Shown here piece after piece: positions 27,907-32,848 of a stretch of DNA of 39,319 bases; position 1 is the stretch's first letter, and each line of letters begins with the position of its first letter. Both the position numbers and the translations under genes were made by a program. The DNA is from Candidatus Woesearchaeota archaeon (GTDB lineage Archaea; Nanobdellota; Nanobdellia; Woesearchaeales; CAZJJJ01), in contig JBKHIF010000003.1 in NCBI GenBank assembly GCA_046538795.1, positions 1 to 39,319 on the forward strand. Direction: 5' to 3'. Under the pieces are notes generated by a model. That model was given only the letters and a program-made list of their open reading frames with translations. It was not told the DNA's origin and did not search any database.

Positions 27907-27997
27907 AGCCCTGTAGTGTAGAGGCCAATCATCCAGCACTTTGGACAATTGTTTTGGAGGAAATGCTGGGACCCAGGTTCAAATCCTGGCAGGGCTA
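27907..27997 (+). tRNA. tRNA-Gln(TTG) with 18-nt intron at 37/38 (27945-27962)
   Basis: Acceptor AGCCCTG/CAGGGCT (A1-U72, typical of archaeal Gln), anticodon stem CAGCA/TGCTG, TTG at 27941-27943, T-arm CCAGG-TTCAAAT-CCTGG, relaxed BHB (CTTT/GAGG, CAA/TTG); no encoded CCA. Confidence 0.95.
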
Positions 27998-28183
27998 TTT
28001 CATATCCGATGCCAGTATTTGAACATCGGCAGAGAACAAGTTCTCTTTGAGTTCATCATCAAAGATAATGAACAATCCTGGCAGGGCTATTTCATATCCG
28101 ATGCCAGTATTTGAACATCGGCAGAGAACAAGTTCTCTTTGAGTTCATCATCAAAGATAATGAACAATCCTGGCAGGGCTATT
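27982..28183 (+). repeat. 92-bp tandem repeat (2 exact units plus 18 bp) starting inside the tRNA T-loop
   Basis: AATCCTGGCAGGGCTATT occurs at 27982, 28074 and 28166 with identical sequence between copies. Confidence 0.95.
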
Positions 28184-28243
28184 GCCTTTCTTTATAATGA
28201 AAGGGTTCACGGTTTGGATTCTCTGCGATGGGAGGAGAAAAAA

Positions 28244-28537
28244 ATGAAAACCGAAATCGTAAAAGAACCAAAAGAAAGAACAGACAGTACAGGCAGAAGA
28301 TGGATTCAAGACCATGAAGAAACATATGACAAAGCAATTTCTAAGTACAAAGAGGCATCCAAAAGCCCTAACAAGAGTTTGATAGTACAATACCTTCAAG
28401 ACATAAGACTTGGCGATAGGTATGCGAAGAGAGCCAAAAAAGCCGTAACTAAAAGCAGAGCACTGCGAATCTTTGGAGTTTTACAAAACATTGATCTTTA
28501 GCTCAAGCAAAAACCATCACAACTACAGAAGGCATAG
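28244..28537 (+). pseudogene. Probable N-terminal remnant of an archaeal tyrosine integrase
   Basis: GGAGG SD and ATG 28244. IQDHEETYDKAI..SPNKSLIVQYLQDIRLG..VTKSRALRIFGVLQNIDL*LKQ resembles, from memory, DPANN integrase N-termini. Stop at 28499; no catalytic domain follows. Confidence 0.5.
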
Positions 28538-28539
28538 TT

Positions 28540-28800
28540 TTGCCTGGTGAAACTTACAAGGAAGGAAAAATCAAAAATATTGATTATATGGAAAAAAGAA
28601 AAACAGAACCTGAAGAGGAAAAAGAGAACTACTTGAAAAGCATCATGGTATATGGAAAAGCGCTTTTCGGAGAAAATTTTGATGAATCAGATATAGAGCA
28701 CATAGCAAAAGAAGAGTCAAAAAGAGTTCCAGAAACATTTGAGCCGACAATTTTAGGAAGGCAATTATTGTTTCTCAGAAAACATCGAAATATTTCCTGA
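28540..28800 (+). CDS. Small hypothetical protein
   Basis: 86-aa ORF with TTG start (ATG alternative at 28588); no motif recognised. Confidence 0.4.
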   Translation: MPGETYKEGKIKNIDYMEKRKTEPEEEKENYLKSIMVYGKALFGENFDESDIEHIAKEESKRVPETFEPTILGRQLLFLRKHRNIS

Positions 28801-29200
28801 GTTCAGGCATCAATAACCTAAGATCTTGCGAAATATTCTTTTTTTCAAGCTCTTCTATTGAAATATATTCAAGTCTTGAAAATTTATCTGGTTCAGCGAT
28901 TGTTGGTACTCCTGAAATGATTTTTGCAAGAAATTTGTTTGCAACTGCTTTTTTTCCATTTGGTGCAATAAATTCAACATTGCCGAAATATTTTAGTTCA
29001 GACAATTCAATCCTGTTTCCAAGCTCTTCATGAACCTCTCTTAATGCAGTCTTTGAAAGTTCTTCTATTGTTGGATTATCCATATCAAGACATTCTGTCT
29101 TTTCTAGTTTTCCACCAGGAGTTTCATAATGATCATGATCCTTCCTATATAAAAGAAGTATGCTTTTTTCTTTGTATATCAAACAACCTGAAAGTATCAT
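28775..29200 (-). CDS. NUDIX hydrolase
   Basis: PGGKLEKTE...ALREVHEELG Nudix box with an internal insertion. Confidence 0.88.
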   Translation of the reverse strand: MILSGCLIYKEKSILLLYRKDHDHYETPGGKLEKTECLDMDNPTIEELSKTALREVHEELGNRIELSELKYFGNVEFIAPNGKKAVANKFLAKIISGVPTIAEPDKFSRLEYISIEELEKKNISQDLRLLMPELRKYFDVF

Positions 29201-29236
29201 GAAAAATAAGAGAATATCTTGTTATTAAATATTTTA

Positions 29237-30107: not shown

Positions 30108-30635
30108 CTATTTGTGTTTTTTGAATAAAAGATAAAGTCCAAGTATTATGAGAAGAGAGGGCCAAACAAAACCGAAATCAAGCCATGCAATGTATCTTTT
30201 CATAAGATAAAAAACTCCTACAAAAATAAGCACGATCCCAAAGATAAGTCCTGTTGTCTTGCTGTGATTCTTATGATCTGTTTTTGTTGATTTTTCTGGT
30301 TCAGAAGTCTTTTCTGCCTTTTTCTCAACCCTTGCCTGTTTTATATCCTTTTTGGGATTGTTATTATCTTTCTTATTTTTCTTGTTCTCTGATTTTACCT
30401 TCCCTATGGCGTCTTCTGCAAAAGTATTTTTTGTCTTAGCCTGATTAGGATTCTCAGGAACTATAGCCCATGCAATAATATAGATCAAGACTCCAAAACC
30501 TTCCATGAAAAGAAGTACGACAAATATCAGTCGTACCCAGACTGAATCTATATCAAAATAATCAGCAAGCCCTCCACATACGCCTGCAATCATCTTATCT
30601 TTCCTTGAACGATATAACTTCTTTTGTTCAGCCAT
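30108..30635 (-). CDS. pspC: PspC-domain protein with C-terminal LiaF-like TM hairpin
   Basis: [42 protein letters not shown]-terminal [18 protein letters not shown]. Confidence 0.9.
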
Positions 30636-30733
30636 TATGATATCACCAAAAACAGATGTAAGTATTATGAGTCTTATAAATAAATTGTCCTATATATAAA
30701 ATCTTATTATCACTATCTAATCAAAAAGAAAAT

Positions 30734-31342
30734 TCAAAATCTTTTTGGGGCTTGTACTGGATTTCGTCTTCTCTCTTTTGAAATCAATTGCTTAAGCTTA
30801 TCATTTTCTCTCATCAGGCGAAGCTTTTCCTTATCTTCTCTTGCAAGGAAGTGTGCATATTTTGAAAGATCAAAATCCGCTTTTTTTATGTTTTCAGCAA
30901 TCTCAGCGAATCTTATTATCTGGTTCCTTATGTGCGATATCTCTTTTTTTGTTTCAGATAGATTATCGTAAAATTCTTTGTATTGCTTTTCAGTCTCTGA
31001 CAAGAAAGACATCTTTCTTGATATCTCTTCTTTTGCTTCTGAAAGAAATTTGTTTTTTAGCCAGTCCTGCAATAGCCTGAATGATTCTATCCTGTTTTTG
31101 AGATCGCTGTTATTATCTCTCAATCCAGAAACTTCTTTTTCAAAATCTCCTGATATGAAGTTATTCTTTTGATGAAGTTCATTGAATTTCTCAAGCAAAG
31201 TCGATATTTTTTTGTCCTGGGACTGATGATTTTCTGATAGTGTTTCTTTAGTATCCTTCAGTCCTGAATCTATTTTTTCAACTTTTGAGGCCATTTCTGA
31301 AAGTTTTTCTTTCATCTCTTCAAATTCTTTCTTATTGAACAT
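30734..31342 (-). CDS. Coiled-coil hypothetical protein
   Basis: 202 aa, E/K/L-rich heptad pattern. Confidence 0.75.
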   Translation of the reverse strand: MFNKKEFEEMKEKLSEMASKVEKIDSGLKDTKETLSENHQSQDKKISTLLEKFNELHQKNNFISGDFEKEVSGLRDNNSDLKNRIESFRLLQDWLKNKFLSEAKEEISRKMSFLSETEKQYKEFYDNLSETKKEISHIRNQIIRFAEIAENIKKADFDLSKYAHFLAREDKEKLRLMRENDKLKQLISKERRRNPVQAPKRF

Positions 31343-31433
31343 GATATTTTCAGGATAATCATTTTGTTTAAAAAATTATCCGAATTTTTAGTTATCAGTT
31401 AACTTTATAATTAATCACCATATTCCAAAAGAC

Positions 31434-32537
31434 ATGATTCCTGATTCAGCAAAGGCGAGACTAAAGGAGCACTTTAACAATTATAATCTCGACCGCGACA
31501 AGATTAGGCTCATAAGCGGTTCAGCAGAGAACCAGACTTATTCTGAAAAAATTGCAAGGCTTCTTAACGTGGATCTTACAAGATGCCACTGGGAAAAATT
31601 CAAGAATGACGAAACTTATGTGCGTATAGATGAAGGGGTGAGAAGCAGGGATGTCTATCTTATACAAAATCTTGAGCCGCCTCTAGATACAAGAATCATG
31701 GAAGTTCTTCTTTTTGCTGATGCTGCAAAAAGAGGTTCTGCACATAAGGTTTCTGTAATTTTTCCTTGTCTTCCATATTCAAGACAAGACAGGATTTCTG
31801 AAGCAAGAGAACCTATAAGTTCCAAAGTCCTTTCAAAGCTTTTCAGCACATGCGGCATTGACAAAGTAATAACAATTGATCTTCACGCAAACCAGATTGT
31901 AGGTTTTTATGATGATAGAATTTACATCGACAATCTTCCTTCAAGCACGCTTTTCGCTCAGATAATGAACCAATGCCTGATCCAAAAAGATGAAAAATAT
32001 GTAATTGTCTCTCCTGATGCAGGAGGAACAAAACGAGTTGAAAGATTTGCAAAACTTCTTCACCACGATGATGTTGATATTGCATCCATGCAGAAAAAAA
32101 GAGAAAAACATAATGCTGTATCATCTCTCAAACTTGTAGGTAATGTAAAGGATCGAGTTGCAATACTTTATGATGATATTCTAGATACAGGAGGTACACT
32201 TCTAAAAGCAGCAAAAGTTCTGTTAGATGAAGGTGCAGTAAAAGTCCATATAGCAACAACCCATGCACTTCTTAACGGAGACTCAGTAGAGCGTCTTGCA
32301 GAATACCAAACAGAAGGCATAATATCAGATATATTCATCACAGACAGCGTAAGACCTAACAAGGAAAAATATGAGCTTATCAAGAAATCAGGACTTAAAC
32401 TGCATATTATTAACCTCAAGATTCTTTTAGCTGATTGTATTGCAAGGATTGAGACACAAAATCATCTTTCTCCGCTTCATTCTTATAATTACATAGACAG
32501 CCTTTATCACAATATTTTACCTAAATGCATCAAATAA
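31434..32537 (+). CDS. prs: Ribose-phosphate pyrophosphokinase
   Basis: FKNDETYVRI, PYSRQDR, IDLHANQI, VSPDAGG, DDILDTGGT, THAL. Confidence 0.96.
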   Translation: MIPDSAKARLKEHFNNYNLDRDKIRLISGSAENQTYSEKIARLLNVDLTRCHWEKFKNDETYVRIDEGVRSRDVYLIQNLEPPLDTRIMEVLLFADAAKRGSAHKVSVIFPCLPYSRQDRISEAREPISSKVLSKLFSTCGIDKVITIDLHANQIVGFYDDRIYIDNLPSSTLFAQIMNQCLIQKDEKYVIVSPDAGGTKRVERFAKLLHHDDVDIASMQKKREKHNAVSSLKLVGNVKDRVAILYDDILDTGGTLLKAAKVLLDEGAVKVHIATTHALLNGDSVERLAEYQTEGIISDIFITDSVRPNKEKYELIKKSGLKLHIINLKILLADCIARIETQNHLSPLHSYNYIDSLYHNILPKCIK

Positions 32538-32581
32538 GATAGTAATATTTAAAAACAACTTCTGATTTTTCTCTTGAAACT

Positions 32582-32673
32582 AGTCCCGTAGTGTAGTGGC
32601 CAATCATACAAGGCTCTGGTCAATCTTTATTGAGAGAAACCTTGTGACCCAGGTTCGAATCCTGGCGGGACTA
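32582..32673 (+). tRNA. tRNA-Gln(CTG) with 19-nt intron at 37/38 (32620-32638)
   Basis: Acceptor AGTCCCG/CGGGACT, anticodon stem CAAGG/CCTTG, CTG at 32616-32618, canonical BHB (CTCT/AGAG, CAAT/ATTG, two 3-nt bulges), T-loop TTCGAAT. Confidence 0.96.
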
Positions 32674-32848
32674 TTTTCATAGTCCCTTAGAATTCGAACA
32701 TCAGCGGAGAGCAAAGCTCACCTTGAATTTTCCTTTCTATAAGAAAGCAAAATAATCCTGGCGGGACTATTTTCATAGTCCCTTAGAATTCGAACATCAG
32801 CGGAGAGCAAAGCTCACCTTGAATTTTCCTTTCTATAAGAAAGCAAAA
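32658..32848 (+). repeat. 96-bp tandem repeat (2 units) starting inside the tRNA T-loop
   Basis: 32658-32752 is identical to 32754-32848; both begin AATCCTGGCGGGACTA. Confidence 0.95.

What the first reader, a model, noticed from the sequence alone, without database searches (positions are those of the whole stretch)
27977..32848. One undescribed-looking tRNA-targeted element family, customised to each host tRNA
Seen: the two arrays differ in sequence but share a layout: tRNA 3' end from exactly A58, TTC-containing loop, antisense arm, AG(T/A)ATT(T/C)GAACATC(G/A)GC, hairpin, TTGA, hairpin with one C mismatch. The antisense tracks the cognate tRNA (ATTTGAAC vs GTTCAAAT; ATTCGAAC vs GTTCGAAT; ATAGTCCC vs GGGACTAT) and leaves C61 unpaired in both. 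Hairpin stems change yet stay paired. Known: tyrosine integrases use tRNA T-loops but usually duplicate the whole 7-nt loop; E. coli tyrT has repeats carrying the tRNA 3' end; integron attC and REP sites act as folded ssDNA. Inference: a roughly 95-bp structure-encoded mobile or regulatory element that pairs with its target tRNA and amplifies in tandem.
Basis: partly seen in the sequence, partly recalled or inferred. Interest (0 to 1): 0.85.

Follow-up and report, generated by a model that had tools for sequence, protein, structure and literature searches.

The report
Hairpin mini-elements behind tRNA genes
Both glutamine tRNA genes in this small archaeal genome are followed by tandem copies of a roughly 95-base non-coding hairpin element that ends in a copy of the tRNA's last 16 bases, and related modules in other genomes are introns in the same tRNA loop, so the family may show how such introns arise.

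Summary
tRNA-Gln(UUG) and tRNA-Gln(CUG) are each followed by 100%-identical tandem units (92 nt x2.2, 96 nt x2.0). Each unit starts with the tRNA's 3' end from A58, followed by an arm antisense to the T-arm and two hairpins.

It is not confined to two loci. 17 of 37 tRNA genes in this 1.34-Mb genome carry such units, in at least three sequence families. The window's family (A) was found in 6 of 6 other genomes of the taxonomic family and 4 of 150 sampled genomes of the order. Family B was found in 12 of 150.

The hairpins covary strongly, almost entirely through Watson-Crick pairs. In some relatives the family-B module lies inside the T-loop, in either orientation. Removing it in silico restores a tRNA in 8 of 10 loci.

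No reverse transcriptase, Y1 transposase or Cas1 gene was found. Integrase genes exist but are not next to the units. No RNA data exist.

Best reading (0.5): non-coding DNA insertion elements that target the T-loop at 57/58. The tRNA survives because its 3' end is duplicated, and unequal recombination then amplifies the unit. The enzyme, and the role of the antisense arm, are unresolved. I found no description in four literature searches.

The parts
27907..27997 (+). tRNA-Gln(UUG); canonical intron 27945-27962; T-loop 27978-27984 (A58 = 27982)
   Evidence: Rfam tRNA 47 bits, full length. Anticodon and intron read by hand. ARAGORN labels are unreliable.
27982..27997 (+). Copy 1 of the 16-nt repeat (A58 to A73); it is part of the working tRNA
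27998..28073 (+). Unit 1 body, family A: loop 27998-28003, antisense arm 28004-28024 (core 28012-28024), hairpin 1 with base 28026-28050, hairpin 2 28051-28073
   Evidence: R1 match 28012-28078 at 73.9 bits.
28074..28165 (+). Unit 2: repeat copy 2 (28074-28089) plus a body identical to unit 1
   Evidence: 100% over 92 nt
28166..28183 (+). Terminal third copy of the tRNA 3' end (18 nt), followed by unrelated sequence
32582..32673 (+). tRNA-Gln(CUG); canonical intron 32620-32638; A58 = 32658
   Evidence: Rfam tRNA 52.2 bits. Bulge-helix-bulge scan finds cuts after 32619 and 32638.
32658..32753 (+). Unit 1: repeat copy 1 (32658-32673), loop, arm 32679-32699, hairpin 1 32701-32726, hairpin 2 32727-32753
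   Evidence: R1 match 32687-32758 at 83.9 bits.
32754..32848 (+). Unit 2: repeat copy 2 (32754-32769) plus body 32770-32848. No terminal repeat copy follows.
   Evidence: 100% over 79 nt

Best explanation
The arrays are tandem copies of a non-coding, hairpin-rich DNA insertion element with a core of about 76-80 nt, which I call family A. It belongs to a wider group of elements in this archaeal order that target the T-loop of tRNA genes at position 57/58.

Shown: every unit is bounded on the right by a copy of the host tRNA's own 3' end starting at A58. The first such copy completes the working tRNA, so the single-copy gene survives. The unit carries an inverted copy of the T-arm and two near-perfect palindromes.

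Inferred: a small circular or hairpin DNA carrying the target's 3' end recombines at the T-loop, either site-specifically or Campbell-like, using an enzyme supplied in trans. Each insertion recreates the target, so units pile up. Identical units then multiply by unequal recombination between the repeats. Distal repeat copies are unselected and decay.

In relatives a sister module (family B) sits inside the T-loop. There it can be removed as a helix-bulge-helix intron, and no duplication is needed.
For: 17 of 37 tRNA genes in the genome carry such units, in families A, B, C and others.

The left junction is fixed in the T-loop, while the repeat's right end varies from 16 to about 43 nt.

Near-identical cores sit behind different tRNAs: 92-93% identity between the Gln-CUG, Glu-CUC and Glu-UUC units.

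Distal repeat copies have decayed at Arg-CCU, Arg-GCG, Ser-GCU and Gly-GCC.

G001:C63 holds an array of three different units, each followed by its own repeat copy.

On contig C5 a 1.1-kb stretch with three open reading frames lies between the tRNA and a further unit.

At the orthologous tRNA-Gln(UUG) locus within one genus, G003 has a unit and 881 nt to the next gene, while G001 has no unit and 139 nt.

Distribution: R1 hits 6 of 6 other genomes of the family and 4 of 150 of the order; R2 hits 12 of 150.

Covariation: family A is 89.6% paired against 61.4% when shuffled, with compensatory changes in 20 of 20 pairs and 0 of 500 shuffles as high. Family B is 91.9% against 78.2%. G-U pairs are nearly absent from the main helices, which fits DNA palindromes.

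The family-B module occurs in both orientations and inside T-loops. Excising it in silico gives an ARAGORN tRNA in 8 of 10 loci.

Unit contigs have about twice the depth of their flanks in two studies.
Against: No recombinase is linked to the units. The PF00589 genes lie on C21, C63 and C95, away from the units. No reverse transcriptase, Y1 transposase or Cas1 was found in the genome, and no Y1 transposase in 5 other carriers.

No autonomous parent element was found. Two viral-contig scans gave only chance matches.

No excised form, empty site or copy-number variant was seen within one population; Logan contigs cannot show them.

A 100-bp double-stranded circle is physically unlikely.

The variable repeat length fits neither a ruler-type target duplication nor a fixed att core.

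How the arms come to match each host is unexplained, as is the conserved mismatch at position 60/61 (18 of 21 arms).

Family A itself was never found as an intron (0 of 32 matches).

Array 2 ends without a terminal repeat copy, which looks like a plain tandem duplication.
Confidence: 0.5

Rival explanations
1. The units are fossil T-loop introns and are not mobile now. An intron-bearing tRNA allele (1-57, intron, 58-73) recombined with an intron-less allele or fragment. That placed a complete tRNA plus a little of its downstream flank in front of the rest of the intron and the old 3' exon. Repeated gain and healing would leave a stack of scars.
For: The same family-B module is a T-loop intron in G106, G121 and G053 and a downstream repeat-flanked unit here. 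Where the repeat is long (Val 42 nt, Lys 26 nt, Gly about 30 nt), it continues into the tRNA's own downstream flank, as a donor flank would. In G137 the sequence before the second repeat copy keeps TGAA, the intron half of the central helix.
Against: Family A has no intron form among 32 matches. My scan found no helix-bulge-helix joining equivalent repeat positions on the + strand. Repeat-flanked family-B units are in the same orientation as the tRNA, whereas 7 of 8 intron forms are opposite. The model does not explain the arms. Family-B copies also sit at protein-gene 3' ends with 30-55 nt repeats.
Confidence: 0.15
2. The units are ordinary scars of large integrase-encoding plasmids or viruses that integrate into tRNA 3' ends. 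The roughly 80 nt would be the two arms of attP left after the interior was deleted.
For: [quoted passage not shown] A 1.1-kb cargo sits at the C5 locus. The genome has tyrosine recombinase genes.
Against: At least 17 loci in one 1.3-Mb genome would each need the same precise interior deletion. No integrase fragment lies in or beside the units. The repeat is 16-20 nt in most loci, against the 44 bp quoted for archaeal examples. The module also occurs inside T-loops in both orientations. There was no viral counterpart in two scans.
Confidence: 0.15
3. The unit is a functional RNA co-transcribed with the tRNA. After RNase Z cleavage, the trailer's arm would pair with the next copy of the 3' end to form a tRNA-like three-way junction, or pair with the tRNA's own 3' strand to control its maturation.
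For: The predicted fold of body plus second repeat closes a multiloop with an acceptor/T-like helix (-26.5 kcal/mol for Gln-CUG). There are G-U pairs at the base of hairpin 1 (TCGG:TTGA) and in the Gln-CUG arm. The architecture is conserved across an order.
Against: The main helices show almost no G-U pairs but many double transversions. The family-B module works in both orientations. Distal repeat copies decay while the cores stay similar. Copy number and family differ from tRNA to tRNA. No Rfam match.
Confidence: 0.1
4. One ancient duplication of a tRNA-Gln gene with its trailer, followed by local tandem duplication, explains both arrays.
For: Both hosts are tRNA-Gln, and the two units align (72% over 240 nt).
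Against: The same family follows tRNA-Glu (two genes), Trp and Ser-GCU here, and nine other tRNA types in relatives.
Confidence: 0.02

Closest known systems
Integrative plasmids and viruses of archaea that use tRNA genes as attB (SSV-type and pNOB8-type; PMC3293823 Discussion read)
   Same: [quoted passage not shown] Repeated use of one tRNA gives stacked inserts.
   Different: Here the insert is 76-115 nt, non-coding, has no integrase, is present at 17 loci in one genome, and uses a 16-20 nt repeat that always starts in the T-loop.
Transposed non-canonical tRNA introns of Thermoproteales (Sugahara 2008 and Fujishima 2010, as summarised in section 2.5 of preprint 10.64898/2026.10.13.758758; the originals were not read)
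   Same: One intron sequence family spans several tRNA types in a genome. A conserved core has exon-complementary edges that build the splicing motif. The route of spread is unknown.
   Different: In this window the module lies outside the tRNA and is flanked by a duplicated 3' exon. Intron forms were seen only for family B, in other genomes.
Miniature inverted-repeat and palindrome-associated elements (MITEs; IS200/IS605-derived PATEs; recalled)
   Same: Size of about 100 nt, non-coding, two imperfect hairpins, many copies, mobilised in trans if at all.
   Different: There is a long, variable duplication of the target with a fixed left edge. No Y1 transposase was found in 6 carrier genomes.
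Folded single-strand recombination sites: integron attC and the CTX phage attP hairpin (recalled)
   Same: Structure is conserved more than sequence. There are imperfect hairpins with a fixed mismatch, tandem arrays at one site, and an inverted copy of the target next to the site.
   Different: The core boxes do not fit RYYYAAC/GTTRRRY (by eye, the fourth base differs). No IntI or Xer link has been shown. Single-strand involvement is untested.
Repeats downstream of E. coli tyrT that carry the tRNA-Tyr 3' end (recalled, not checked here)
   Same: Tandem units after a tRNA gene, each holding the tRNA's 3' end.
   Different: That is one locus in a bacterium. Here the pattern is genome-wide, on many tRNA types, with antisense arms and intron relatives.

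Membership tests
Integrase-mediated tRNA-integrating element | [quoted passage not shown] | tested here: met
Integrase-mediated tRNA-integrating element | An integrase gene lies inside or beside the insert | tested here: not met
   Units are 76-115 nt with no open reading frame. The PF00589 hits lie on C21, C63 and C95, away from the units. The ORFs after array 1 match no family.
Archaeal bulge-helix-bulge tRNA intron | It interrupts the mature tRNA sequence | tested here: not met
   In the window the tRNAs are complete without removing the units. The feature is met for family B in relatives: 8 of 10 loci.
Archaeal bulge-helix-bulge tRNA intron | A helix-bulge-helix-bulge-helix motif at both boundaries | tested here: not met
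   My scan recovers the canonical Gln-CUG intron but finds no + strand motif joining equivalent positions of consecutive repeat copies. Minus-strand hits are not shared by the two arrays.
IS200/IS605-derived PATE / MITE | A Y1 HUH transposase is present in carrier genomes | tested here: not met
   PF01797: 0 of 6 genomes, 76-98% complete
IS200/IS605-derived PATE / MITE | Subterminal imperfect hairpins | tested here: met
IS200/IS605-derived PATE / MITE | Insertion without target duplication | tested here: not met
   16-43 nt repeat at the downstream units. No repeat at the intron forms.
Casposon / Cas1-type integration | A Cas1 homologue in the genome | tested here: not met
   PF01867: no hit
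Retroelement primed on a tRNA (antisense arm as primer-binding site) | A reverse transcriptase, and a copy made from mature tRNA with CCA | tested here: not met
   PF00078: no hit. The repeat runs into the gene's own flank, not CCA.
Integron cassette / attC | RYYYAAC and GTTRRRY core boxes | tested here: not met
   By eye: TTTGAAC and GTTCAAA differ at the fourth base
Integron cassette / attC | An IntI-type integrase next to the array | not tested
   No IntI-specific model was run; no PF00589 hit lies in the window's contig
Any Rfam RNA family | Score at or above the gathering threshold | tested here: not met
   Only tRNA passes in 27500-33200

The most novel reading that the evidence does not exclude
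These hairpin modules are the DNA vehicle by which non-canonical T-loop introns enter archaeal tRNA genes. A non-coding palindromic element inserts at 57/58 of any tRNA gene. If its edges can pair with the T-loop to form a helix-bulge-helix, it persists as an intron. If not, only insertions that also duplicate the 3' exon survive, and these leave the downstream arrays seen here. The antisense arms are the raw material of the splicing motif.
Probability: 0.3. Interest if true: 0.85.

Novelty: new variant of a known kind. Interest (0 to 1): 0.7.

Why it matters
How archaeal tRNA introns and tRNA fragments arise is an open question. [quoted passage not shown]

Here one sequence family is seen in two states. 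In some genomes it is a T-loop intron. In others it is a downstream unit flanked by a duplicated 3' exon. Both forms lie within the T-loop: the repeat-flanked units start at A58, and most intron junctions are compatible with 57/58. That makes the question testable by comparative genomics and by simple biochemistry.

It is also practical. These units break assemblies at tRNA loci, since several contigs here end inside arrays, and they confuse tRNA callers.

Tried and rejected
C/D-box guide for Cm56: by eye the arm's G lies five bases before TCGG/TCAG, but no C box is shared by the two arrays. Dropped.

Suppressor tRNAs: ARAGORN's 'Stop' and 'Pyl' labels come from a misplaced intron. The helix-bulge-helix reading gives Gln.

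EndA type as the reason for intron forms versus repeat-flanked forms: a single 178-229 aa open frame was found in the own genome and in 8 of 10 carriers, with no hit in G123 or G057. There is no visible difference between the two kinds of genome.

Viral parent element: two exact-pattern scans of viral contigs gave 25 and 53 stretches. An nhmmer check showed matches no wider than the pattern.

Public runs: no RNA holder was listed. Contigs of four DNA runs showed no joints and break at the repeats.

Naming the organism: a genome-contig scan with the PRPP synthase-like protein found no relative.

Minus-strand helix-bulge-helix in array 1 (cuts after 28168 and 28102): it is absent from array 2, so I take it as chance.

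Supplements of the cited papers are closed. Their tables of tRNA fragments and intron families may hold similar cases.

Literature searches listed no description of such units. That covers only the open-access library held here.
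Full report
WHAT IS IN THE WINDOW

Tandem Repeats Finder reports two perfect arrays:
- 27982-28183: period 92, 2.2 copies, 100% matches.
- 32658-32848: period 96, 2.0 copies, 100% matches.

Rfam finds two complete tRNAs, 27907-27997 and 32582-32673, and no other family above threshold in 27500-33200. Read by hand, both are tRNA-Gln with a canonical 37/38 intron: anticodon UUG with intron 27945-27962, and CUG with intron 32620-32638. 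My helix-bulge-helix scan recovers the second intron exactly. ARAGORN's labels ('???', Thr, Stop, Pyl) come from misplaced introns. No other tRNA-Gln is among the 37 it calls.

Each repeat starts at A58 of the T-loop and runs to the discriminator base. After it come, in order:
- a T-rich loop;
- an arm that is the reverse complement of the tRNA from G53 onward;
- ATC;
- hairpin 1, whose base is TCRG:TTGA;
- hairpin 2, with one mismatch;
- the next copy of the 3' end.

IT IS GENOME-WIDE

The window is contig C20 of a 1.34-Mb, 35% G+C assembly of 97 contigs, with archaeal-type tRNA introns and a splicing endonuclease gene. I took the last bases of each of the 37 ARAGORN tRNAs and searched downstream.
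- 12 tRNAs have an exact second copy 80-130 nt away, or behind 1.1 kb on C5.
- Inspection adds Glu-UUC (one mismatch) and four decayed copies: Ser-GCU, Arg-CCU, Arg-GCG and Gly-GCC.
- The total is 17 of 37. An orphan array also sits on C83.
- A tRNA-Met with an 11-nt repeat 45 nt downstream was not counted.

The units fall into families:
- Family A (the window's family): Gln x2, Glu x2, Trp, Ser-GCU.
- Family B: Gly-UCC, Lys, Val-UAC, Pro-GGG, Arg x2.
- Family C: Ser x2, Gly-UCC on C5.
- Other types: Thr-GGU and Gly-GCC.

Covariance models built from A and B find only these loci in the genome: 11 and 9 matches. Several contigs end inside arrays.

RULES ACROSS LOCI

The left edge of the repeat is fixed in the T-loop. 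It is A58 in most loci and T60 in Thr-GGU and G117. The right edge varies, from the discriminator base up to 27 nt beyond it.

Cores behind different tRNAs are 92-93% identical, while the arm differs with the host.

I anchored 21 arms at G53 (three Leu arms were out of register and were dropped) and compared them with their host tRNAs (counted by eye):
- Positions 53-59 mismatch in 3 of 147 cells.
- Position 60 and/or 61 mismatches in 18 of 21 arms.
- Positions 62-66 match in 77 of 105 cells.
- Beyond position 66 the match fades.

Customisation is therefore real but partial. One arm, at a tRNA-Ser in G006, fits a CCTGG stem better than its host. A formal cognate versus non-cognate test was not run.

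DISTRIBUTION
- Family A: all 6 other genomes of the taxonomic family at E <= 0.1, behind Gln, Leu, Met, Ile, Ser, Ala, Trp, Arg and Pro tRNAs.
- Family A: 4 of 150 sampled genomes of the order under stricter filters, behind Gln, Ser, Phe and Ala tRNAs, two of them in tandem.
- Family B: 12 of 150 genomes of the order and 2 of 6 of the family (one match is weak).

At the orthologous tRNA-Gln(UUG) locus within one genus, G003 carries a unit and G001 does not. Both flanks align at 66% identity.

STRUCTURE

For family A (32 matches, 29 distinct), 89.6% of cells pair against 61.4% in shuffles and at most 52.5% when the partner is slid. All 20 pairs show changes on both sides (152 cells; 0 of 500 shuffles reach this).

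For family B (31 matches), 91.9% pair against 78.2%. 15 of 24 pairs show compensatory changes (96 cells).

Relatedness inflates such figures, but the slid controls keep relatedness and still fall far short.

The main helices hold almost no G-U pairs: none in helix 2 and one in helix 3 of family A. They do hold many double transversions, such as AU:10, GC:10 and CG:7 at a single pair. That is what DNA palindromes look like, or a hairpin that must form on both strands. A slowly drifting RNA helix would show more G-U intermediates. G-U pairs occur only at the outer base of hairpin 1 and in the Gln-CUG arm.

THE LINK TO INTRONS

I examined the 21 family-B matches in other genomes.
- 7 have the same layout as here: a complete tRNA, 4-40 nt, the module, then the repeat. 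One of these is between two whole tRNA-Gln copies. One is a mixed array of three different units.
- 8 lie inside a tRNA gene, in the T-arm.
- 2 are flanked by 30-55 nt repeats of a protein gene's 3' end.
- 1 is flanked by a 13-nt repeat just after a tRNA.
- 3 are unclear or cut by a contig end.

For 10 loci that lie in or beside a tRNA gene, I removed the 89-97 nt insert in silico. ARAGORN then called a tRNA spanning the junction in 8. The other two include one locus cut by a contig end (the first attempt used too narrow a range).

The module is opposite to the tRNA in 7 of these and in the same orientation in 1. The junction is ambiguous between 56/57 and 59/60 in most, and is 53/54 in G053.

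In tRNA sense, the T-loop's TTCA pairs with TGAA just before the 3' exon, and the intron's first 8-9 nt pair with a third copy of the hairpin-2 arm. This gives a near-canonical helix-bulge-helix (by hand).

DPANN alpha4 endonucleases with an extra loop are reported to go with disrupted tRNA genes (PMC5829648, passages).

Family A was never seen as an intron (0 of 32 matches).

WHAT ENZYME?

None can be named.
- No reverse transcriptase, Y1 transposase or Cas1 was found in this 97.6%-complete genome.
- No Y1 transposase was found in five other carriers.
- Six PF00589 matches lie in four open frames on C21, C63 and C95, none beside a unit.
- The ORFs after array 1 match no Pfam family.
- No viral or plasmid parent was found.

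READING

Four observations point to insertion of a small DNA that brings, or causes, a duplicate of the target's 3' end, followed by local amplification:
- The basic state at most loci is tRNA(1-57), P, Q, P, flank, where P is the repeat and Q the unit body. A plain tandem duplication cannot produce that. It needs Q plus a second P to be inserted.
- Nearly identical cores sit behind unrelated tRNAs.
- Arrays can be mixed, and distal copies decay.
- There is presence/absence at an orthologous locus.

The Watson-Crick-only palindromes and the two orientations argue for action as DNA. I put this reading at 0.5.

It leaves several things open: the enzyme, the variable repeat length, the origin of the host-matched arms, and the conserved 60/61 mismatch. 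That mismatch could mark a cleavage or crossover site, by analogy with folded single-strand recombination sites, but that is a recalled analogy and not a test.

The nearest rival (0.15) keeps the same observations but treats the units as healed T-loop introns. Classic island scars (0.15) and a functional trailer RNA (0.1) are less likely. A single tRNA-Gln duplication is excluded.

PRIOR KNOWLEDGE

Integration of kilobase-sized elements into tRNA genes, the tRNA fragments this leaves, and intron gain through such integration are all established or proposed (PMC3293823 Discussion; PMC9897764 passages). Intron families that span tRNA types are known from Thermoproteales, and the route of intron arrival is described as open (preprint 10.64898/2026.10.13.758758, abstract and section 2.5).

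Four full-text searches listed nothing on 100-nt non-coding units with a repeat starting at A58. Supplements were closed, and subscription journals are not covered.

Noticed in passing
window 27906-27998 and 32581-32674: With introns allowed, ARAGORN calls the two tRNA-Gln genes 'tRNA-Stop (tta)' and 'tRNA-Pyl (cta)'. Without introns it calls them '???' and Thr. The helix-bulge-helix geometry gives UUG and CUG. Automatic annotation of this genome would wrongly report suppressor tRNAs.
   Followed up: yes
G000 contig C5, about 4380-5790 (L118): Between tRNA-Gly(UCC) and a partly decayed copy of its T-arm and 3' end lie 1.1 kb with three small ORFs. By their first residues, two look like an antitoxin-like protein and a PIN-like protein; I did not run them against Pfam. 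A family-C unit and a further repeat copy follow.
   Followed up: partly
G000 contig C63 4582-5649 (-) and contig C21 5819-6859 (+): Two ORFs of about 350 aa each give two tandem PF00589 (integrase catalytic domain) matches within one open frame. Each lies next to an ORF of more than 1000 aa. A double catalytic domain in one chain would be unusual.
   Followed up: no
G000 contig C40 about 4400-4545 (-) and contig C5 about 4260-4420 (-): A longer variant of the family-A unit has about 100 extra bases after TTTGAACATG, sharing ..CACCCAAAT.GC.. and ..GGGTCTGC.. It ends in a decayed repeat copy. This may be a nested insert.
   Followed up: no
G001:C63 (L142): A mixed array: three different unit types in series, each followed by its own AATCCG.. 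copy of the tRNA 3' end, two of them diverged.
   Followed up: partly
G086:C15 (L146) and G145:C2 (L147): Family-B modules are flanked by 30-55 nt direct repeats of the 3' end of a protein-coding gene, so the target is not strictly a tRNA. In G071:C68 a copy is flanked by a 13-nt repeat just after a tRNA, with a short antisense stretch next to the second repeat.
   Followed up: partly
G000 contig C53 6634-6870: The spacer between tRNA-Met and tRNA-Ser(UGA) holds two copies of a segment of about 45 nt that matches the sequence leading into, and the first part of, tRNA-Ser. This looks like a duplicated 5' part rather than a 3' part.
   Followed up: no
window 28244-28498 and 28540-28797 (+): Two 85-86 aa ORFs directly after array 1 match no Pfam family at E <= 0.01. 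The next gene on the minus strand is a NUDIX hydrolase.
   Followed up: partly
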